Part shown: piece by piece, positions 1-5,560 of the stretch | Layout: the number at the start of each line of letters is the position of its first letter | Position numbering within the stretch: the stretch's first letter is position 1 | DNA from: a virus | Taxonomy: Duplodnaviria > Heunggongvirae > Uroviricota > Caudoviricetes | Virus record (IMG/VR): IMGVR_UViG_2734482785_000015 | DNA length: 5,560 bases | Strand: one strand, 5' to 3' | The notes under the pieces: generated by a model | The model's input: only the letters and a program-made list of their open reading frames with translations | Database searches by the model: none | Told to the model about the DNA's origin: nothing | Program-made: the position numbers and the translations under genes

Positions 1-1242
1 ATGGCACGAAAAACCACTCCACTAACCATCACGGAGATCAAAAATGCACGACCAGGAGAAAAAGAATACACCCTGCAGGATGGCGGAGGATTGTTTCTTC
101 TGGTGAAGCCCTCCGGATCAAAAATCTGGCGCTTTACGTATTACCGACCCACTGACAAAAAACGAACCATCGTTAGTCTTGGTCCGCTGAATGATGTTTC
201 TCTGTCAGAAGCCAGAGAGCGACGAAACGAATACAGGGGACTTATAGCGAAGGGAGTTGACCCACAGGACCACGAACGCCGGAAACGTGAAGCAGAGAGC
301 CGGAAAAAGGGCAACACGTTCGAAAAAGTTGCCTCTGACTGGTACGAGATGAAAAAAGGCCAGAATCTCGCTTACAACACGATTAAGGATATCTGGCGAT
401 CCATGGAAAAATACGTATTCCCGTACATCGGAAAAACGCCAATAGATACCCTCACCGCTCGCCGCTTTGTTGAGATACTCACCCCCATTAAGGCGCGTGG
501 CAACCTGGAAACCCTGAAACGCGTTTTACAGCGCATCAATGAGGTGATGGATTTTGCTGCCAACAGTGGTCTGATTGACATCAACACCGCCGCGAACGTC
601 CGTAAGGCATTCCCTACCCCCACCAAAAAGCACATGCCAACCATCCGACCGGAACAGCTACCGCAGCTAATGCACGATTTATCGGTCGCCAGCATAGAAC
701 GGCAAACCAGATTGCTGATTGAGTGGCAGCTACTGACCGTAGCACGCCCCGCCGAAGCAGCCGCCACACGCTGGGAAGAAATAAACCTCGATGCCGAAAC
801 CTGGACGATTCCAGCCGGACGCATGAAGATGCGCCGTGACCATGTGATCCCCCTTTGTGGTCAGGCTATGGCTGTACTGGAAACCATGAAGCCAATCAGC
901 GCACACAGGGAACACGTTTTTCCCAGCCTTAAAAACCCGATGCTGCCAATGAGCAGCCAGACCGCTAACGCCGCATTGCGCCGGATGGGTTACGCTGGTG
1001 TGCTGGTGTCTCACGGATTACGCGCCATATTCAGCACAGCAGCGAACGAGGAAGGATTCGAACCGGACGTAATCGAGGCCGCGCTCGCACACGTGGACAC
1101 GAACGAGGTAAGGCGAGCATATAACCGAAGTAACTACCTGGAAAAACGTGTAGTACTTATGCGCTGGTGGGGTGAATTTGTGGAAACCGCAGCAACCGGA
1201 GTGACCATAGCCAGTGGTAAAAGGGGTATCCGTGCGGTGTGA
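1..1242 (+). CDS. int: Tyrosine-type site-specific integrase, P4-like family
   Basis: 413-aa ORF from ATG at 1 to TGA at 1240-1242. The N-terminus (MARKTTPLTITEIK...DGGGLFLLVKPSGSKIWRFTYY) is typical of the arm-binding region of P4-type integrases. C-terminal catalytic-type motifs are readable: ARPAE (Arg codon 745-747), HGLR (1012-1023), LAH, and Tyr374 (1120-1122) ten residues after the second His. Confidence 0.93.
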   Translation: MARKTTPLTITEIKNARPGEKEYTLQDGGGLFLLVKPSGSKIWRFTYYRPTDKKRTIVSLGPLNDVSLSEARERRNEYRGLIAKGVDPQDHERRKREAESRKKGNTFEKVASDWYEMKKGQNLAYNTIKDIWRSMEKYVFPYIGKTPIDTLTARRFVEILTPIKARGNLETLKRVLQRINEVMDFAANSGLIDINTAANVRKAFPTPTKKHMPTIRPEQLPQLMHDLSVASIERQTRLLIEWQLLTVARPAEAAATRWEEINLDAETWTIPAGRMKMRRDHVIPLCGQAMAVLETMKPISAHREHVFPSLKNPMLPMSSQTANAALRRMGYAGVLVSHGLRAIFSTAANEEGFEPDVIEAALAHVDTNEVRRAYNRSNYLEKRVVLMRWWGEFVETAATGVTIASGKRGIRAV

Positions 1243-1355
1243 CTGTACAAAAAACCAGTACAACCAGTGCAAACCATGCTAAACCATCGTATAATCGCCT
1301 ATCTCCTCAACAGACAAGGAAAAACCCGACTCATGAGAAATCGAGATTTATTGAA

Positions 1356-1598
1356 ATGGTCTGGCACGAAAAATCATCCAATGTCTGCGGTGAAGGGCTG
1401 CAACTGGCGTTAATGGCAAATCGTGAATTCTGGTCAACATACGATCCGGAAGACAAATCAACAGCCCCCACAAAACACGAGGTAGTCAGTTTTTTACGCT
1501 CGCGTGGCGCATCGAAAAATCTGGCTGAAAGCATCGACAAGGTGCTGAGGCCCACCAGCCTTAAATGTGGTGGGCGACCTAAGAAGTGGAAACGGTAA
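1356..1598 (+). CDS. Hypothetical small protein (80 aa from ATG 1356; frame is open from GTG 1239 giving 119 aa; alternative ATG at 1413)
   Basis: Open frame with reasonable enterobacterial codon choice (ctg, gcg, cgt, gaa, aaa), ending TAA 1596-1598 and followed 5 nt later by a strong intrinsic terminator. No strong Shine-Dalgarno at any candidate start, so the start is uncertain. No family recognised. Confidence 0.4.
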   Translation: MVWHEKSSNVCGEGLQLALMANREFWSTYDPEDKSTAPTKHEVVSFLRSRGASKNLAESIDKVLRPTSLKCGGRPKKWKR

Positions 1599-1603
1599 TC
1601 ACA

Positions 1604-1633
1604 ATAGCGGCCCCTTGCGGTCGCTATTTTTTT
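1604..1633 (+). terminator. Rho-independent terminator (plus strand)
   Basis: Stem ATAGCGGCC (1604-1612) pairs with GGTCGCTAT (1619-1627) with one G-T wobble, around a CCTTGC loop, followed by a T run (1627-1633). The minus-strand reading lacks a U tract, so it is unidirectional. Confidence 0.65.
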
Positions 1634-1660
1634 GCAAAAAGAAAGCGTAATCAATGAGAT

Positions 1661-1703
1661 AAAAAACAGTGAGTACCGTTTTAAAACGGTGAGTACTGTT
1701 TTT
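1661..1703. promoter_or_regulatory. AT-rich imperfect 44-bp palindrome with a perfect 16-bp core and embedded direct repeats, upstream of alpA
   Basis: Perfect palindrome ACCGTTTTAAAACGGT at 1675-1690. Outer arms AAAAAACAGT (1661-1670) and ACTGTTTTT (1695-1703) are complementary. Direct repeats GTGAGTACCGTTTT (1669-1682) and GTGAGTACTGTTTT (1689-1702) sit 20 bp apart. Could be an operator or a weak bidirectional terminator/attenuator; function not determinable from sequence. Confidence 0.5.
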
Positions 1704-1767
1704 CCCGCCCTGCCCTGTTTTACCGTATTTATCACCGGAATACGCCGGATTAACGAGGTAAAACACG

Positions 1768-1974
1768 ATGGAAGTAATCAGAAAAATTCTTACCCGTCAG
1801 GAAGTAAAAAATATTCTGCGCATCAAGGCAGACAGTTCGCTACAGGACATGATCAACGCCGGAAAATTCCCGAAAGGCTTCAAAATCGGTCTGCGTCGTG
1901 TTGGCTGGTATGAAGATGAAGTGCTGGCCTGGCTGAAAGAGCGCGAGGAAGAAGCGCGCGGAACGGCTGCGTAA
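1768..1974 (+). CDS. alpA: AlpA-family (P4 Vis-like, MerR-superfamily HTH) transcriptional regulator / excision activator
   Basis: 68-aa ORF with GAGG (1755-1758) 9 nt upstream of ATG 1768. The translation carries the AlpA-type pattern ILTRQEVKNILRIKADSSLQDMINAGKFPKGFKIGLRRVGWYEDEVLAWL. It lies just downstream of a P4-type integrase, as in P4-like cryptic prophages. Confidence 0.85.
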   Translation: MEVIRKILTRQEVKNILRIKADSSLQDMINAGKFPKGFKIGLRRVGWYEDEVLAWLKEREEEARGTAA

Positions 1975-2120
1975 TGGTGTGAGGCGTAACGCGATGAACA
2001 TAACAAAAAGCGCCCCGTTGCCGGAGCGCCCTTGCGAACAATTAACCTACTGCGCAAAAAATGAATCAGTGCAGTGGGATTATATCAACCGTGTAGCGAA
2101 GCGCCACAATTGCCGGATAA

Positions 2121-2153
2121 CAGGCAAAACAAAGGCCACCTGCTACGGTGGCC
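2121..2153 (-). terminator. Rho-independent terminator (minus strand)
   Basis: GC stem GGCCACC (2134-2140) / GGTGGCC (2147-2153) with a 6-nt loop. On the minus strand it is followed by UUUGUUUUG (complement of 2121-2133). No T run follows on the plus strand. Confidence 0.55.
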
Positions 2154-2256
2154 ATTCGACACAAGCTACACGTTATCCCCAACGCATGAGCATTGCCAAC
2201 AATGCCACATTTGCGGCTGGTGGGCAATGTGATCAGTGTGCTGGCTTGCTGGTGGG

Positions 2257-2451
2257 CTATTCCTGCTCTTTAACATCGTCATGCCGCGATGTTTTCCAGG
2301 TATGCGATCCCATTTTTGTGCGCCTGTACTCTTTTAAGAACTTCTCAAGGGCAAACGCACATGGCGCAAATCTTTCTGATTCATGCTCTATCTTTCTGCG
2401 CCGTCTTTTCCGTGCCGGTGATGGTGTATTGGTTGATTCTTTGTTGGTCAT
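2257..2451 (-). CDS. Questionable small basic ORF (64 aa, KRRRRK-containing) inside the transcribed 3' region of the regulator gene
   Basis: ATG-to-TAG ORF on the minus strand between the regulator stop (2509) and the minus-strand terminator. Weak or absent Shine-Dalgarno (AGG 8-9 nt upstream) and several rare codons (AGA, AGG, ATA, CGG) argue against it; position between a gene and its terminator argues mildly for it. Confidence 0.2.
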   Translation of the reverse strand: MTNKESTNTPSPARKRRRRKIEHESERFAPCAFALEKFLKEYRRTKMGSHTWKTSRHDDVKEQE

Positions 2452-2508
2452 TCTGTGTACCTGTAAAGCAATGCGCCGGAGTTCCTCACACCACGGCGAT
2501 GATAGTTA

Positions 2509-2814
2509 TTATTCTGATTCTTTGGCCTTGCGGCGCTGGAGTTCTTCACGTGCGACGGTGACGAGCTGCCCGATCTCCTCGGCAGCTTTGACTCCGATTT
2601 TTTCCACCTGCGCCAGCGCATCGAGCGAAGAAACCAGGGGATTTTCTCCGCTTCCTTCTGCCTGGCGGCGGGCGATCTCACCGCGCATGGCGGTTACTAT
2701 GAATCCGGCGTTGCTTTCACCGTCCAGTTTTACGGATTCCATGCCTTCAAAAGCATCATGTGGGATACGAATTGAAATCTGTTTTGATTTGTCGTTGATA
2801 GTGTTTTTTGCCAT
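2509..2814 (-). CDS. Putative ribbon-helix-helix (CopG/Arc/MetJ-like) DNA-binding regulator, candidate repressor of the divergent operon
   Basis: Minus-strand ORF. The best start is the ATG at 2812-2814 (101 aa, MAKNTINDKSKQISIRIP...), 6 nt downstream of AGGAGA (complement of 2821-2826). The track start at 2853 adds 13 residues without a ribosome-binding site. The N-terminus KQISIRIPHDAFEGMESVKL...SNAGFIVTAMRGEIARR fits an RHH beta-strand, helix, helix pattern. It diverges from an operator-bearing promoter region. Confidence 0.7.
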   Translation of the reverse strand: MAKNTINDKSKQISIRIPHDAFEGMESVKLDGESNAGFIVTAMRGEIARRQAEGSGENPLVSSLDALAQVEKIGVKAAEEIGQLVTVAREELQRRKAKESE

Positions 2815-2836
2815 GTGCATTCTCCTAAACAAAAGA

Positions 2837-2913
2837 TGTGATTCAGTATACACAAAAAAGAATCACAAAAAATACTTGACCTGTGATTCAGTTAAATTTA
2901 ATTTAAATCACAC
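2837..2913. promoter_or_regulatory. Divergent promoter region with two inverted-repeat operator units
   Basis: Unit 1: TGTGATTCA (2837-2845), 13-bp AT-rich spacer, AGAATCACA (2859-2867). Unit 2: TGTGATTCA (2882-2890), 14-bp spacer, AAATCACA (2905-2912). Plus-strand sigma70-like promoter: -35 TTGACC (2875-2880), 17-bp spacer, -10 TAATTT (2898-2903), overlapping unit 2. Minus-strand -10 TATACT (complement of 2845-2850) overlaps unit 1. Confidence 0.6.
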
Positions 2914-2937
2914 CTCAGTAAGAGGATGTAAACGACA

Positions 2938-2971
2938 ACGCCCCGAACTGTTTGCGGCAGTAGCGGGGCGT
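2938..2971 (+). other. Stable stem-loop in the 5' leader of the Icd-like operon (no U tract)
   Basis: ACGCCCCG (2938-2945) pairs with CGGGGCGT (2964-2971); an inner CTG/CAG pair sits within the loop. It lies between the predicted promoter and the ribosome-binding site of the first gene. It is not followed by a T run, so it is not a canonical intrinsic terminator. Confidence 0.4.
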
Positions 2972-3007
2972 CTAACCACCAACGATAGAAAGCGTATCGA
3001 GGTAGCT

Positions 3008-3214
3008 ATGAGAAATCATACCATACACCCGCAAGGGCGGGACTCGCACAACCTGAATAAATACATCTGGCGTTTTATCGCCCTGAGTACGGCACAACCG
3101 CGCGTGATTACCATCGTGGCCACCAGCGAACAGGAAGCGCGCCAGCAATCTCCTGATGGCTGCGTGATGGTATTCGCCGCCCGTATTCGCCAGGAGGTGC
3201 ACCATGTGCAATAA
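3008..3214 (+). CDS. Icd-like (Ash family) small protein; positional analogue of P4 kil
   Basis: 68-aa ORF with GAGG (2999-3002) 5 nt upstream of ATG 3008. The translation MRNHTIHPQGRDSHNLNKYIWRFIALSTAQPRVITIVATSEQEARQQSPDGCVMVFAARIRQEVHHVQ matches my recollection of the host-cell-division-inhibitor Icd-like proteins of P4-like prophages. It is the C-terminal in-frame part of the artefactual 1979-3214 track ORF. Confidence 0.8.
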   Translation: MRNHTIHPQGRDSHNLNKYIWRFIALSTAQPRVITIVATSEQEARQQSPDGCVMVFAARIRQEVHHVQ

Positions 3215-3440
3215 CACCCGTCCGGACGCAGCCGCCGAAGCTATCAAAACGCTAATGCACGCGCTGATTGATATTTCTGTTATCGCGGACATGGCACATA
3301 AGCACGCCACCAGTGAAACAGAATATGCCGGGGCTTTCGTTCCTCACTCACTGGCTGTTATGCAATTTAGTGCTGATATGGCGCTGAATGAGGCAGGCAA
3401 AATTCTTACCGCAGATATTCAAGGGGCGCACCATGCATGA
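3204..3440 (+). CDS. Hypothetical protein (78 aa)
   Basis: ATG 3204 is preceded by GGAGG (3194-3198) and overlaps the Icd-like stop by 11 nt, consistent with translational coupling. No family recognised. Confidence 0.6.
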   Translation: MCNNTRPDAAAEAIKTLMHALIDISVIADMAHKHATSETEYAGAFVPHSLAVMQFSADMALNEAGKILTADIQGAHHA

Positions 3441-3660
3441 TGACCGTTATTTTAAATCAATGAGCCATGCAGAAAATGCGCTGACTAACAGTGAATGCTT
3501 GCGGCAAATATTGCTTATCTGGCTTGATGGTTTAAGTGATGCGCCGGAAGATGAACGTGAATCTAATCTTGCTGGTGCGTTTATTTCATTACTCGATACG
3601 GTAATCGTCGAATTAAATAAAGCGATCGAAATTCACGATAAAAAAATAAACGCGGAATAA
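3433..3660 (+). CDS. Hypothetical acidic protein (75 aa from ATG 3433; track start 3388 is an in-frame alternative)
   Basis: ATG 3433 is preceded by AAGGGG (3421-3426) and overlaps the stop of the preceding gene (ATGCATGA, 3433-3440). The upstream ATG at 3388 has no Shine-Dalgarno. No family recognised. Confidence 0.55.
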   Translation: MHDDRYFKSMSHAENALTNSECLRQILLIWLDGLSDAPEDERESNLAGAFISLLDTVIVELNKAIEIHDKKINAE

Positions 3661-3665
3661 AAACC

Positions 3666-3953
3666 ATGAAACAGAAAAATTCTGGCTTTACTGCCAGCGG
3701 CCCCGCTCGGTCTGAAATCCGCCCCGGCGATATTTTCAAAGATAACTACGGCGGCACGATAACGATAAAAGACGTGGAAGAACGGCGCATCACCTACCGT
3801 CGTGAAGGCTACGACTATGACTGCGTGATGCCTGTTTATCAGTTCCGGCGTGATTTTAAGCTGGTGGGCCATCGTAAAGCCGTAAATCAGAAACGTGCAG
3901 CAAGCTATATCCGCAAAATCCGTGAAATGCTGGTCGCAGGGGGTAAGAAATGA
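3666..3953 (+). CDS. Hypothetical protein (95 aa), tentatively DUF4222-like
   Basis: ATG 3666 lies 5 nt after the previous stop; the TGA stop at 3951-3953 overlaps the ATG of the downstream replication gene (ATGA). The motif ITYRREGYDYDCVMPVYQFRRDF resembles small proteins seen upstream of primases in enterobacterial P4-like islands; this is recollection only. Confidence 0.6.
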   Translation: MKQKNSGFTASGPARSEIRPGDIFKDNYGGTITIKDVEERRITYRREGYDYDCVMPVYQFRRDFKLVGHRKAVNQKRAASYIRKIREMLVAGGKK

Positions 3954-5560
3954 AACTGGCACCGAACGTAAAACTGTTACCGAAAGATAAAGGCGAGGAT
4001 GCAGTGATTTTTGCGGGGGATGACGCATACAGCCATGCAGAGCATTACATGCAGGGCGGAGAAGCCAGAAAGCGCGGCGACAAAATACCACCTGTTTATC
4101 TCGGACGGCGTGACCTGGGTAATCTGGAAAACCTGCGTATTGTGGATGAGGGTCGGTCACGCGCCATCGTCAGACGTGCCGGAAAACTGGATGACAAACT
4201 GGCGCTACAGATTGAAACCCTGCTGGCAGTGGCTGGTGTTAAAGAAGCCTGTTTTTGTGACGAGAACGGCGATTTACTGGAGGACTGGACACCACAGCTT
4301 GCCCGACTGAAAGACGAATACGAGCGCGGGGAAAGTCTTGTGTTGCCCTTAAAGAAAAAAGCCACCACAAGCCCGGGTGATGATGAATTAAAGCCCCGCG
4401 TTGAAAGCCGCGCCGATGGTGTTTTCTGGGTAACGCCCAAAGTGGATAAGCAGTCAGGCGAAATTATCCGGCCTGAAACGTGGTTATGTTCCACGCTTGA
4501 ACTACTGGGAACGGGGACAATCGGCAAAGAGCATTACCGCGTGATGCGCTGGAAAAAGCCAGCAAATCATGAAGTCATCACAATGGCGATTCCGTGCGGT
4601 GGCATTGGCGACCGTGACGGCTGGCGGCTACTGAAAGACCACGGACTGAACGTAACAACCAACGGTAAATACAGAGCTATCCTGGCTGACTGGATGCAGT
4701 TAAGCGGAAGTCATGAGGAATGGCAGTTAAGCACAACAACGGGCTGGCATTTTGGCGCGTACATCATGCCGGACGGTTCGGTCATTGGTGAGTCTGAAAA
4801 ACAGATTCTGTTTACCGGAAAAACAGCCGCTGTTAATGGCTATTCCGTGGCAGGAACGGCGGAGGGCTGGCGCGATACCGTTGCGCGGCTGGCTGGAGGC
4901 AATCCCTTAATGATGCTGGGTGTGGCGGTATCGCTATCTGCACCATTAATCGGGCTGGTGGGGGCTGACGGCTTCGGGGTACATCTTTTCGAACAGTCCA
5001 CAGCAGGGAAAACCACCACACAGAACATCGCATCAAGTTTATGGGGAGAGCCGGACGCACAACGGCTGACCTGGTACGGTACAGCGTTAGGTATCGCCAA
5101 CGAGGCAGAGGCACACAACGACGGGCTGTTACCCCTGGATGAAATAGGCCAGGCTGGAAACGCGCGGGAGGTGTCAACGTCTGCTTATACGCTGTTTAAC
5201 GGTTCCGGGAAATTACAGGGGGCGAAGGACGGCGGCAACAGGGAGATAAAACACTGGCGAACGGTGGCAATCAGTACCGGAGAAATGGACGTTGAAACAT
5301 TCCTCAAAACGGAGGGGATAAAAGTCAAGGCGGGGCAGCTTGTCCGCCTGCTTAACGTGCCGATGGAAAAAGCCACACAATTTCACGAATACAGCACCGG
5401 AAAGGCGCACGCAGACGCGTTAAAAGATGCCTGGACAGAAAATCACGGGGCGGCGGGTCGTGAATGGGTTAAATGGCTGGCAGACCACCAGCAGGAGGCA
5501 AAGGACACGGTAAGGGCATGCCGTGAACGGTGGCGCAACCTGATACCGGAGAGCTACGGC
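3950..5560 (+). CDS. Primase/helicase-like replication protein (P-loop NTPase, P4 alpha-like / DUF927-like), 3'-truncated by the window end
   Basis: Frame 2 is open for 537 codons from ATG 3950 to the last base of the window; I translated it by hand and found no stop. Deviant Walker A STAGKTTT at 4997-5020 and Walker B LLPLDE at 5126-5143. Antisense and alternate-frame track ORFs in this span are short and compositionally odd. It is absent from the supplied track only because it lacks an in-window stop. Confidence 0.85.
   Translation, partial: MKLAPNVKLLPKDKGEDAVIFAGDDAYSHAEHYMQGGEARKRGDKIPPVYLGRRDLGNLENLRIVDEGRSRAIVRRAGKLDDKLALQIETLLAVAGVKEACFCDENGDLLEDWTPQLARLKDEYERGESLVLPLKKKATTSPGDDELKPRVESRADGVFWVTPKVDKQSGEIIRPETWLCSTLELLGTGTIGKEHYRVMRWKKPANHEVITMAIPCGGIGDRDGWRLLKDHGLNVTTNGKYRAILADWMQLSGSHEEWQLSTTTGWHFGAYIMPDGSVIGESEKQILFTGKTAAVNGYSVAGTAEGWRDTVARLAGGNPLMMLGVAVSLSAPLIGLVGADGFGVHLFEQSTAGKTTTQNIASSLWGEPDAQRLTWYGTALGIANEAEAHNDGLLPLDEIGQAGNAREVSTSAYTLFNGSGKLQGAKDGGNREIKHWRTVAISTGEMDVETFLKTEGIKVKAGQLVRLLNVPMEKATQFHEYSTGKAHADALKDAWTENHGAAGREWVKWLADHQQEAKDTVRACRERWRNLIPESYG

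What the first reader, a model, noticed from the sequence alone, without database searches (positions are those of the whole stretch)
1..5560. Overall architecture fits a P4-like satellite with the integrase at the window edge
The order int, small ORF, alpA, divergent regulator, Icd-like, small ORFs, primase/helicase parallels the P4 left operon (kil through alpha) placed next to a P4-type int-alpA pair. The integration site, normally the 3' end of a tRNA gene for this integrase family, must lie just upstream of position 1. Capsid-size redirection and defence-hotspot cargo, if present, would lie beyond the 3' end of the window.
Basis: partly seen in the sequence, partly recalled or inferred. 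Interest (0 to 1): 0.45.

Follow-up and report, generated by a model that had tools for sequence, protein, structure and literature searches.

The report
Phage-inducible chromosomal island, not P4-like

Summary

Its context predictions also hold:
- tRNA-Pro(GGG) ends 208 bp upstream of position 1.
- Complete relatives have an imperfect copy of the tRNA 3' end at the far side.
- Empty-site strains exist.

The label "P4-like" fails. Of 14 P4 proteins, only Int (33% identity) and Vis/AlpA give BLAST hits. The Icd-like protein shares a domain with P4 Eta/Kil. No alpha, epsilon, sid, delta or psu is found in 13.95 kb of the window's own island or in complete relatives.

The proteins are instead 55-92% identical to those of published PICIs (EcCIATCC25922 at the same site, EcCICFT073), in the same order. 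The replicase resembles SaPI Rep/Cch helicases. Downstream lie origin iterons, SSB, ProQ, two PerC genes, a lambda/phage-21-type terS between inverted cos copies, and a Panacea gene pair.

About 8% of complete E. coli genomes carry this left junction. This is an ordinary new member of a known kind.

The parts
1..1242 (+). Tyrosine integrase of the P4/PICI clade (413 aa), transcribed inward from the left end of the island
   Evidence: Pfam Arm-DNA-bind_3, Phage_int_M and Phage_integrase; NF007246 at 551 bits. 82% identical to EcCIATCC25922 Int, 33% to P4 Int, 24% to EcCICFT073 Int. The HGLR and RRAY motifs are visible in the translation.
1356..1598 (+). 80-aa ORF of unknown function between int and alpA
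   Evidence: No Pfam, PHROG, NCBIfam or PADLOC hit. Conserved: 73% identity in EcCIATCC25922 at the same position.
1603..1628 (+). Terminator-like hairpin ending the int-orf80 unit
   Evidence: 10-bp stem with 5 G-C pairs followed by TTTTTTT. This is a consensus match only.
1768..1974 (+). AlpA-family HTH protein (68 aa), the likely activator/excisionase that switches the island on
   Evidence: PF05930 E 4.5e-8; phrog_66 'excisionase and transcriptional regulator'. 76% identical to EcCIATCC25922 AlpA; 35% over 37 aa to P4 Vis. The role is inferred from EcCICFT073 experiments (PMC6092414).
2257..2451 (-). 64-aa ORF, second gene of the divergent (leftward) pair
   Evidence: phrog_21027 E 5e-29. 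71% identical to the gene at the same position in EcCICFT073 and EcCIATCC25922. AT skew changes sign over 2000-2750.
2509..2814 (-). YlcI/YnfO-family protein (101 aa): candidate ribbon-helix-helix DNA-binding protein with a long C-terminal helix, transcribed divergently from the replication operon
2815..3007 (.). Divergent intergenic control region between the YlcI-like gene and the rightward operon
   Evidence: 193 bp with no sigma-70 consensus match and no C4/isrK RNA. A regulatory role is inferred from position only.
3008..3214 (+). Icd-like protein (68 aa), first gene of the rightward operon; domain-level homologue of the C-terminus of P4 Eta/Kil
   Evidence: NF033153 E 8.6e-20. 92% identical to the EcCICFT073 and EcCIATCC25922 proteins. 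P4 ORF 8168-8584 carries the same domain at residues 85-132, E 7.8e-21.
3204..3440 (+). 78-aa ORF, unknown function
   Evidence: phrog_5146 E 2.9e-37. 42% identity to EcCICFT073 and EcCIATCC25922 ORFs.
3433..3660 (+). 75-aa ORF, unknown function
   Evidence: phrog_2196 E 4e-23. Called as a 75-aa gene in public annotations. 42% identity to an EcCIATCC25922 ORF.
3666..3953 (+). DUF4222 protein (95 aa), immediately upstream of and overlapping the replicase start, as in EcCICFT073
   Evidence: PF13973 E 6.4e-23. 59% and 54% identity to the EcCICFT073 and EcCIATCC25922 genes at the same position.
3950..5560 (+). Replicase (Pri-Rep position): first 537 of 707 residues, with a DUF927 helicase-type domain
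   Evidence: PF06048 E 1e-45; phrog_1139 'DNA primase' E 7e-131. PDB 8tch 'Pathogenicity island protein' E 4e-15 and 5dgk 'Active helicase' E 0.003. No BLAST match to P4 alpha. 29% identity over residues 1-367 to EcCICFT073 Pri-Rep.

Best explanation
The window is the integration, regulatory and (part of the) replication zones of a Gram-negative phage-inducible chromosomal island (PICI, 'EcCI'). The island is about 14.5 kb and is integrated at the 3' end of the tRNA-Pro(GGG) gene proL, between yejM and yejO.

Likely life cycle, inferred from the characterised relative EcCICFT073:
1. The island is silent until a lambda-like helper phage is induced or infects the cell.
2. The helper turns on alpA, and AlpA activates itself and the rightward operon.
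3. Int, probably with AlpA as directionality factor, excises the island by recombination between the tRNA 3' end and its imperfect copy at the right end. Arm-type AGCTAYACG sites are clustered at both ends.
4. The DUF927 replicase, a SaPI-Rep/Cch-like helicase, fires the iteron origin just downstream of its own gene, helped by the island's SSB.
5. The island's own lambda/phage-21-type small terminase subunit directs the helper's large terminase to the island's variant cos site. Island DNA is then packaged into helper-made particles.

The Icd-like protein may block cell division during induction. The divergent YlcI-like protein is a candidate repressor.

Shown here: gene content, homologies, att structure, empty site, iterons, and the cos/terS module. 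Inferred: induction by a helper, AlpA activation, packaging, and the role of each small ORF.
For: Same gene order as EcCICFT073 and EcCIATCC25922.

Protein identities to those two PICIs: Int 82%, orf80 73%, AlpA 76%, YlcI-like 82%, Icd-like 92%, orf64 71%, DUF4222 54-59%, SSB 70-91%, PerC 56%, TerS-like 49%, terminal 94-aa ORF 71-74%.

The yejM site is a catalogued PICI attachment site (Table S1 of PMC6092414).

Attachment site:
- tRNA-Pro ends 208 bp upstream of the window start.
- attR is an imperfect tRNA 3'-end copy, and an empty site exists.
- Arm 9-mer: 9 hits against 0.35 expected, clustered at both ends.

Origin: TAACCCGCAAA iterons, 11 hits against 0.48 expected, with four copies at 21-nt spacing right after the replicase gene.

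Replicase: related to PDB 8tch 'Pathogenicity island protein' and to the Cch helicase.

Packaging module:
- The TerS homologue matches lambda TerS at E 7e-38.
- It is 67% identical to phage PhiR5_1 Nu1 and 58% to phage 21 gp1.
- It is flanked by lambda-like cos copies.

There are no tail, lysis, portal or terL genes in the 13.95 kb of the window's own island that were read, or in complete relatives.

The four-zone PICI organisation (Integration, Bro, Replication, Late) of PMC10111431 fits.
Against: - No experiment: excision, helper dependence and transfer are all inferred.
- The right end of the window's own island was not reached. L015 stops about 300 bp short, so attR is taken from relatives of 92-99% identity.
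- The island lacks the capsid and decoration genes found in EcCICFT073 and EcCIATCC25922, so it would be a 4-of-5-component ('Type B') PICI.
- Its cosN core (GGGCGGCAGACG) differs from the lambda core at 5 of 12 positions. No sequenced phage with that variant was found, so the helper is unidentified.
- AlpA shows only weak similarity to EcCICFT073 AlpA (60% over 25 aa).
Confidence: 0.9

Rival explanations
1. P4-like satellite: an element that hijacks a P2-type helper, using alpha for replication, epsilon for helper derepression, and Sid/Delta/Psu to build small capsids and activate late genes.
For: - P4-family integrase, 33% identity.
- AlpA/Vis homologue.
- Icd-like domain shared with P4 Eta/Kil.
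- tRNA-adjacent integration.
- Two separated iteron clusters recall P4 ori/crr.
- A sister allele (L019) even has the P4-type isrK + C4 immunity RNA cassette.
Against: - tblastn with all 14 P4 proteins finds no alpha, epsilon, sid, delta, psu, cII, beta or gop in the window's own island or in complete relatives.
- The replicase lacks the Zn-ribbon, Toprim, D5_N and Pox_D5 domains of alpha.
- No C4/isrK RNA in the window even at E <= 1, while P4 scores above gathering as a positive control.
- cos and terS are lambda/21-type.
- The gene order is that of PICIs.
Confidence: 0.03
2. Decayed remnant of a lambdoid prophage that kept integrase, some early genes, cos and Nu1.
For: The cos region and terS are clearly lambdoid. 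SSB and small early-type ORFs have PHROG hits.
Against: - Precise att-bounded 14.5-15 kb unit with conserved content in many strains and an empty site.
- int points inward and is next to alpA; PMC10111431 uses this as a signature that separates PICIs from prophages.
- The replicase is of the SaPI-Rep/Cch type.
- No terL, portal, tail or lysis remnants are annotated.
- All genes in the window are intact.
Confidence: 0.04
3. Integrative mobilisable island of plasmid ancestry that moves by conjugation. SSB and ProQ/FinO are typical of plasmid leading regions.
For: SSB and ProQ/FinO-family genes lie downstream of the replicase.
Against: No relaxase, oriT or coupling protein is annotated. A cos/terS packaging module is present. 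SSB is also part of the replication zone in EcCICFT073.
Confidence: 0.03

Closest known systems
EcCIATCC25922 and the other PICIs listed at the yejM site (EcCIED1a.1, EcCI11128, EcCI11368.1, SdCI1012, SbCISb227; Fillol-Salom et al. 2018, Table S1)
   Same: - Same chromosomal site (yejM-proL) and the same attR core.
- Same gene order.
- Int 82%, AlpA 76%, YlcI-like 82%, Icd-like 92%, SSB 91%, terminal ORF 74% identical.
- A terS-like gene flanked by inverted cos copies.
   Different: - Replicase allele: DUF927 here against a D5_N/DUF5906/Pox_D5-type 'DNA primase family protein' there.
- No capsid or head-decoration genes here.
- Extra ProQ, two PerC genes and a Panacea pair here.
- Arm repeat AGCTAYACG here against GTAGTTATACG there.
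- cosN core GGGCGGCAGACG here against the canonical GGGCGGCGACCT there.
- TerS only 49% identical.
EcCICFT073, the experimentally characterised E. coli PICI (helpers lambda and phi80)
   Same: - Same four-zone layout: int, alpA, divergent 64-aa + YlcI pair, Icd-like, small ORFs, DUF4222, Pri-Rep, hypothetical, SSB, PerC, cos module, terminal 94-aa ORF.
- Icd-like 92%, orf64 71%, SSB 70%, DUF4222 59%, PerC 56% identical.
- Two inverted cos copies.
   Different: - Different integrase (24% identity) and site (ycfD-phoQ).
- EcCICFT073 uses RppA, a TerS-binding mimic, whereas this island encodes a full-length Nu1-type TerS (E 7e-38 to lambda TerS, only 0.007 to RppC).
- EcCICFT073 has capsid and decoration genes.
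Satellite phage P4
   Same: - Integrase clade (33% identity), Vis/AlpA HTH, Icd-like domain of Eta/Kil.
- tRNA-type integration with arm repeats.
- A replication operon ending in a large replicase, with iterons at two separated places.
   Different: - No alpha, epsilon, sid, delta or psu.
- No CI RNA in this allele.
- Different gene order.
- Lambda-type rather than P2-type packaging signals.
SaPI Rep / SCCmec Cch replicative helicases
   Same: The window's replicase matches PDB 8tch 'Pathogenicity island protein' (E 4e-15, residues 228-599) and 5dgk 'Active helicase'. It also matches the NCBIfam SCCmec Cch1 model weakly, E 4.8e-8.
   Different: Sequence similarity is remote. The first ~170 residues have no assigned domain. 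Function was not tested.

Membership tests
P4-like satellite (seven core components, PMC10085698) | Integrase | tested here: met
   33% identity to P4 Int over 404 aa, E 1e-73. This component is shared with PICIs and does not discriminate.
P4-like satellite (seven core components, PMC10085698) | AlpA/Vis regulator | tested here: met
   PF05930 E 4.5e-8. 35% identity over 37 aa to P4 Vis. Also shared with PICIs.
P4-like satellite (seven core components, PMC10085698) | Alpha primase-helicase (Zn-ribbon primase + Toprim + D5-type helicase) | tested here: not met
   P4 alpha has Zn_Ribbon_Prim, Toprim_3, D5_N, DUF5906 and Pox_D5. The window's replicase has DUF927 only. tblastn best E is 0.4-1.4.
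P4-like satellite (seven core components, PMC10085698) | Epsilon (helper derepression protein) | tested here: not met
   No tblastn hit better than E 1.6 in the window's own island (L015) or in complete relative L002.
P4-like satellite (seven core components, PMC10085698) | Sid, Delta and Psu operon | tested here: not met
   No hit better than E 0.67 in L015 (to window-equivalent 13,953) or in complete relatives L001 and L002. The annotated downstream genes are SSB, ProQ, PerC, TerS and Panacea. A structure-level search was not done.
P4-like satellite (seven core components, PMC10085698) | Gene order psu-delta-sid, then alpA, epsilon, alpha, with int separated from alpA | tested here: not met
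   Here int and alpA are 526 bp apart and co-oriented with the replicase operon.
P4-like satellite (seven core components, PMC10085698) | CI immunity RNA (Rfam C4) with its seqA target (isrK). Characteristic of P4, though not one of the seven core components | tested here: not met
   None in the window at E <= 1 or in L015 at gathering score. The positive control P4 scores 74.9 and 60.8 bits. Sister island L019 does have both.
Gram-negative PICI (PMC6092414, PMC10085698, PMC10111431) | Inward-pointing int followed by alpA, with unidirectional rightward organisation | tested here: met
   The only exception is the small divergent pair, which is also present in EcCICFT073 and EcCIATCC25922.
Gram-negative PICI (PMC6092414, PMC10085698, PMC10111431) | Pri-Rep replicase with an iteron origin immediately downstream | tested here: met
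   DUF927 replicase. DUF927 is listed among the PICI primase-family Pfams in PMC10111431. Four TAACCCGCAAA iterons at 21-nt spacing plus inverted copies start 25 bp after the stop codon.
Gram-negative PICI (PMC6092414, PMC10085698, PMC10111431) | PICI-specific orthologues shared with characterised PICIs | tested here: met
   Ten of twelve window/island proteins match EcCIATCC25922 and/or EcCICFT073 at 42-92% identity.
Gram-negative PICI (PMC6092414, PMC10085698, PMC10111431) | Dedicated attachment site, flanking repeat, empty site in other strains | tested here: met
   proL 3' end against an imperfect copy at attR. Empty site in strain 120899. The site is listed for PICIs. The attR of the window's own record was not reached.
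Gram-negative PICI (PMC6092414, PMC10085698, PMC10111431) | Size about 8-20 kb with no tail, lysis, portal or terL genes | tested here: met
   14.6 and 15.1 kb in L001 and L002. No such genes are annotated or detected.
Gram-negative PICI (PMC6092414, PMC10085698, PMC10111431) | Packaging-redirection module (terS or rpp with cos/pac) | tested here: met
   194-aa Nu1-type TerS (E 7e-38 to lambda TerS) between inverted lambda-like cos copies.
Gram-negative PICI (PMC6092414, PMC10085698, PMC10111431) | Capsid-morphogenesis gene (fifth SatelliteFinder component) | tested here: not met
   No homologue of the EcCICFT073 capsid or decoration proteins in L015 or L002. Four of five components corresponds to 'Type B', which the authors still accept as a PICI.
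Gram-negative PICI (PMC6092414, PMC10085698, PMC10111431) | Helper-phage-dependent induction, packaging and high-frequency transfer | not testable with these tools
   Needs induction and transduction experiments.
Capsid-forming PICI (cfPICI) | Own capsid, portal, protease, head-tail connectors and terL | tested here: not met
   None are annotated in the window's own island. Variant L003/L014 has a ClpP-capsid fusion, but no portal or terL was seen.

The most novel reading that the evidence does not exclude
The divergently transcribed YlcI/YnfO-like protein (window 2509-2814, minus strand), possibly together with its 64-aa partner, could be the missing master repressor or immunity determinant of Gram-negative PICIs. 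Fillol-Salom et al. 2018 left this function open. It would hold the rightward Icd-to-replicase operon off until AlpA or a helper factor overrides it, playing the role that the CI/C4 RNA cassette plays in P4 and in sister allele L019. The evidence does not exclude this. The gene pair is conserved at this position in EcCICFT073 and EcCIATCC25922. The predicted fold is compatible with a ribbon-helix-helix followed by a coiled coil. The window's allele has no C4/isrK RNA.
Probability: 0.2. Interest if true: 0.5.

Novelty: new member of a known kind. Interest (0 to 1): 0.2.

Why it matters
The main value is in correct filing. int + AlpA + replicase next to a tRNA gene is not enough to call a P4-like satellite. 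The discriminating genes lie downstream, and here they show a PICI that parasitises lambda-like cos phages.

Such islands are common; this left junction is present in about 8% of complete E. coli genomes. They carry PerC-type virulence regulators and toxin-antitoxin or defence-type cargo, and they interfere with temperate phages. Correct classification therefore affects predictions of helper range and gene transfer.

The side observations are modest leads for PICI biology rather than surprises: the island's own TerS with a diverged cosN on an invertible segment, allelic swapping of a P4-type RNA immunity cassette, and a possible RHH repressor.

Tried and rejected
1. P4 membership. tblastn with all 14 P4 proteins against four islands gave only Int and Vis.
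2. CI/C4 immunity RNA in the window. None at E <= 1. The only hit, isrD at E 0.43 (2128-2170, minus strand), is just the terminator hairpin after the 64-aa ORF.
3. The 26-nt flanking direct repeat as the att core. Rejected after the empty-site alignment showed the crossover lies in the tRNA 3' end. The 26-mers are internal arm-type repeats.
4. Looking up the records that contain the window in the annotated E. coli collection. They are not held there.
5. Looking up the full-length replicase to extend the contig. The DUF4222 look-up extended the window's own record to window-equivalent 13,953, still about 300 bp short of attR.
6. Defence-system screen (PADLOC) of ten island proteins. No hits.
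7. Helper phage with the variant cosN. No phage record exceeded 80% identity over the cos region. In IMG/VR the exact 20-mer occurs only in PICI-like contigs, plus three chance hits in GC-rich coding sequence.
8. Fold search for the YlcI-like model. It was dominated by coiled-coil matches to the long C-terminal helix and is uninformative for the N-terminus.
9. Rpp identity of the terS-like gene. Rejected: E 0.007 to RppC against 7e-38 to lambda TerS.

Full report
**1. The observation**

| Window coordinates | Strand | Feature | Support |
|---|---|---|---|
| 1-1242 | + | Integrase | Arm-DNA-bind_3, Phage_int_M, Phage_integrase; NF007246 at 551 bits |
| 1356-1598 | + | 80-aa ORF | No family hit |
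| 1768-1974 | + | AlpA | PF05930 |
| 2257-2451 | - | 64-aa ORF | phrog_21027 |
| 2509-2814 | - | YlcI/YnfO-family protein | NF041551 |
| 3008-3214 | + | Icd-like protein | NF033153 |
| 3204-3440, 3433-3660 | + | Two small ORFs | PHROG hits only |
| 3666-3953 | + | DUF4222 | PF13973 |
| 3950-5560 | + | DUF927 replicase, running off the window | PF06048 |

A terminator-like hairpin at 1603-1628 closes the int-orf80 unit. The AT skew flips sign over 2000-2750, as expected for minus-strand genes there. The window holds no tRNA gene.

**2. Where the window comes from**

The window is an exact substring of several public chromosomes, including CP099192.1 and CP057621.1 (loci L004, L006, L007, L013, L015-L017). 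The flanking genes are yejM upstream and, in complete relatives, yejO and narP downstream. The flanks are 98-99.6% identical to E. coli.

**3. Attachment site**

- tRNA-Pro(GGG) ends 208 bp upstream of window position 1.
- A 26-nt direct repeat brackets the island in complete relatives L001 and L002.
- Alignment with an empty site (strain 120899, L009) shows the real junctions. The chromosome runs from the tRNA 3' end ...CTCTCGTGCCGACCA straight into AAAATCCCAAG.
- The right junction carries an imperfect copy...ACTCTCGTG(C)GACCA|AAAATCCC.
- The same attR core is present in L001, L002, L014, L019 and the published EcCIATCC25922.
- The 26-mers are therefore internal arm-type repeats. The 9-mer AGCTAYACG occurs 9 times in L002 against 0.35 expected, clustered at both ends.

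The complete relatives measure 14.6 and 15.1 kb. The window's own record was read to window-equivalent 13,953 and stops about 300 bp short of the predicted attR. An island-type left junction is present in 448 of 5,426 complete E. coli genomes.

**4. Test of 'P4-like'**

P4 itself was fetched and all 14 of its proteins were searched against four islands, including the window's own.

- Only Int (33% identity, E 1e-73) and Vis (35% over 37 aa, E 3e-6) match.
- Alpha, epsilon, sid, delta, psu, cII, beta and gop give nothing better than E 0.36.
- P4 alpha is Zn-ribbon primase + Toprim + D5_N + DUF5906 + Pox_D5. The window's replicase has only DUF927.
- The replicase is related to PDB 8tch 'Pathogenicity island protein' (E 4e-15) and to the SCCmec Cch helicase 5dgk.
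- In P4, int and vis are separated by the cargo genes, cos and psu-delta-sid. Here int and alpA are neighbours and co-oriented with the replicase operon.

Five of the seven components that define P4-like satellites (PMC10085698) are therefore absent. That paper also states that a typical P4-like element would score as a three-component PICI because it has integrase, AlpA and a primase. These are exactly the three markers visible in the window, so they cannot discriminate.

**5. What it is**

EcCICFT073 and EcCIATCC25922 were fetched. Both show the same order: int, alpA, divergent 64-aa + YlcI pair, Icd-like, small ORFs, DUF4222, Pri-Rep, hypothetical, SSB, (PerC), cos module, terminal 94-aa ORF.

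| Protein | vs EcCIATCC25922 | vs EcCICFT073 |
|---|---|---|
| Int | 82% | 24% |
| orf80 | 73% | none |
| AlpA | 76% | 60% over 25 aa |
| orf64 | 71% | 71% |
| YlcI-like | 82% | 34% |
| Icd-like | 92% | 92% |
| DUF4222 | 54% | 59% |
| SSB | 91% | 70% |
| PerC | none | 56% |
| TerS-like | 49% | none |
| Terminal 94-aa ORF | 74% | 71% |

Table S1 of Fillol-Salom et al. 2018 already lists six PICIs at the yejM site. Mageeney et al. 2023 describe the four-zone Gram-negative PICI plan (Integration, Bro, Replication, Late). They include DUF927 among the PICI primase-family domains and report that 15 or more reference PICIs were remapped to tRNA genes. The window covers the Integration and Bro zones and the first three quarters of the replicase gene.

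**6. Beyond the window, in the window's own island (L015)**

- Iterons TAACCCGCAAA: four direct copies at 21-nt spacing plus inverted copies, starting 25 bp after the replicase stop.
- Then a 111-aa ORF, SSB, ProQ/FinO and PerC.
- A 194-aa small terminase homologue, on the minus strand.
- A 94-aa ORF conserved in all compared PICIs, a 100-aa ORF on the minus strand, and a second PerC.
- A SocA/Panacea protein with a 145-aa partner.
- No PADLOC hits for these proteins.

The terminase homologue is a true Nu1-type TerS, not an Rpp:
- lambda TerS E 7e-38 against RppC E 0.007;
- 67% identical to phage PhiR5_1 Nu1 and 58% to phage 21 gp1.

It lies between inverted repeats of 322 + 131 nt. Each repeat contains a lambda-like cos with conserved flanks but a diverged core, GGGCGGCAGACG against GGGCGGCGACCT.

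There are no capsid or decoration genes, unlike EcCICFT073. Capsid-size redirection of the P4 kind is therefore not expected. The E. coli model PICI is reported to be packaged as phage-length concatemers (PMC10111431).

**7. What remains of the P4 parallel**

The first ORF of the P4 left operon (8168-8584, Eta with nested Kil according to PMC10111431) is Phage_ASH plus a C-terminal Icd-like domain. The window's 68-aa Icd-like protein has the same domain at 25% identity.

Rfam finds the P4 CI RNA (C4) and seqA (isrK) in P4. It also finds both in sister island L019, inside an Ash-Icd ORF at the same position. It finds neither in the window, L015, L002, EcCICFT073 or EcCIATCC25922. The P4-type RNA immunity cassette is an allelic option in this PICI lineage that the window's allele lacks.

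**8. The 'divergent regulator'**

- The YlcI-like protein has 215 homologues across Enterobacterales, and some are named CopG or Arc-like by UniRef.
- An AF2 model built from a 24-sequence alignment has mean pLDDT 80, with a short N-terminal extended segment, helices 19-28 and 35-52, and a long helix 59-100.
- That topology is compatible with a ribbon-helix-helix plus coiled coil.

'Regulator' is plausible but unproven.

**9. Mechanism (inferred)**

By homology with EcCICFT073 (PMC6092414), a lambda-like helper induces alpA. AlpA then activates itself and the rightward operon. Int excises the island at the proL att. The replicase fires the adjacent origin. The island's TerS, together with the helper's TerL, packages island DNA from its own cos. 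None of these steps was tested here.

**10. Verdict**

The element is an ordinary new member of a known kind, the Gram-negative PICIs at the yejM/proL site.

Noticed in passing
window 1979-3214 (+): A 411-aa ORF stays open across the antisense of the 64-aa and YlcI-like genes. Several public annotations call it as a 406-aa protein (L004, L005, L007, L013, L015, L016). Only its last 68 codons (the Icd-like gene) are supported. The long form is not conserved in L001, the minus-strand genes have strong PHROG hits, and the AT skew fits minus-strand coding.
   Followed up: partly
L004 18060-19728 (window-equivalent 8060-9728); L001 24601-25949: The terS gene sits between inverted repeats of 322 + 131 nt (92-94% complementary), each containing a cos-like site. 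The segment between them is inverted in some strains relative to others: terS is on the minus strand in L002, L004-L008, L013, L015-L017 and L020-L022, and on the plus strand in L001, L018 and L019. L001, L002, L005 and L008 have three cos copies. This could be simple homologous flip-flop, or it could matter for packaging direction.
   Followed up: partly
L004 18410-18427 and 19362-19379 (both cos copies): The cosN core is GGGCGGCAGACG instead of the lambda/phi80/21 core GGGCGGCGACCT. The cosQ-side and cosB-side flanks are conserved. No phage in the INPHARED set exceeds 80% identity over this region. In IMG/VR the exact 20-mer occurs only in PICI-like contigs. The helper whose TerL cuts this site is unknown.
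   Followed up: partly
L019 9070-9549 (the Icd position in a sister island with the same integrase and att site): This allele has a 159-aa Ash + Icd-like ORF containing Rfam isrK (80.5 bits) and C4 (76.4 bits). That is the same arrangement as the P4 seqA/CI immunity region in Eta. The window's allele has only the short Icd-like ORF and no such RNA.
   Followed up: yes
L003/L014 (metagenome scaffold), breakpoint at window-equivalent ~4341: The same integrase and left module (98% identity up to about codon 130 of the replicase gene) is joined to a different replicase (468 aa, AAA_25). Its late zone is also different: a 638-aa ClpP-protease/capsid fusion and a DUF1441 protein. The result is a roughly 10.5-kb island at the same site. 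This looks like modular recombination inside the replicase N-terminal region.
   Followed up: partly
L015 18917-19149 (window-equivalent ~12580-12815): A second cluster of five origin-type iterons (TAACCCGCAAA, at most 1 mismatch) lies about 6.4 kb downstream of the origin, between the second PerC gene and the Panacea gene. In total there are 11 hits against 0.48 expected. The arrangement recalls the bipartite ori/crr of P4, but its function is unknown.
   Followed up: partly
L001 14911-14936 and 29293-29318; Table S1 of PMC6092414: The strings listed as 'att site core' for the yejM PICIs in the 2018 table (TTTGTAGTTATACGTTTGTAGTTATACGG) correspond to the internal arm-type repeats found here, not to the crossover. 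The crossover lies in the tRNA-Pro 3' end. Mageeney et al. 2023 report remapping 15 or more reference PICIs to tRNA genes, so this is probably already corrected.
   Followed up: partly
L015 19509-20288 (window-equivalent ~13174-13953); L002 28777-29672: A SocA/Panacea-domain protein (153 aa, PF13274 E 1.6e-18) with an overlapping 145-aa partner of no known family sits at the right end of the island, next to attR. It could be a toxin-antitoxin or defence cargo pair. It is absent from L001. There is no PADLOC hit.
   Followed up: partly
L001 23463-24254 (-): One relative carries an 'F4 family fimbrial subunit' gene inserted between PerC and the cos-terS module. It is absent from the window's own island and from L002.
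   Followed up: no
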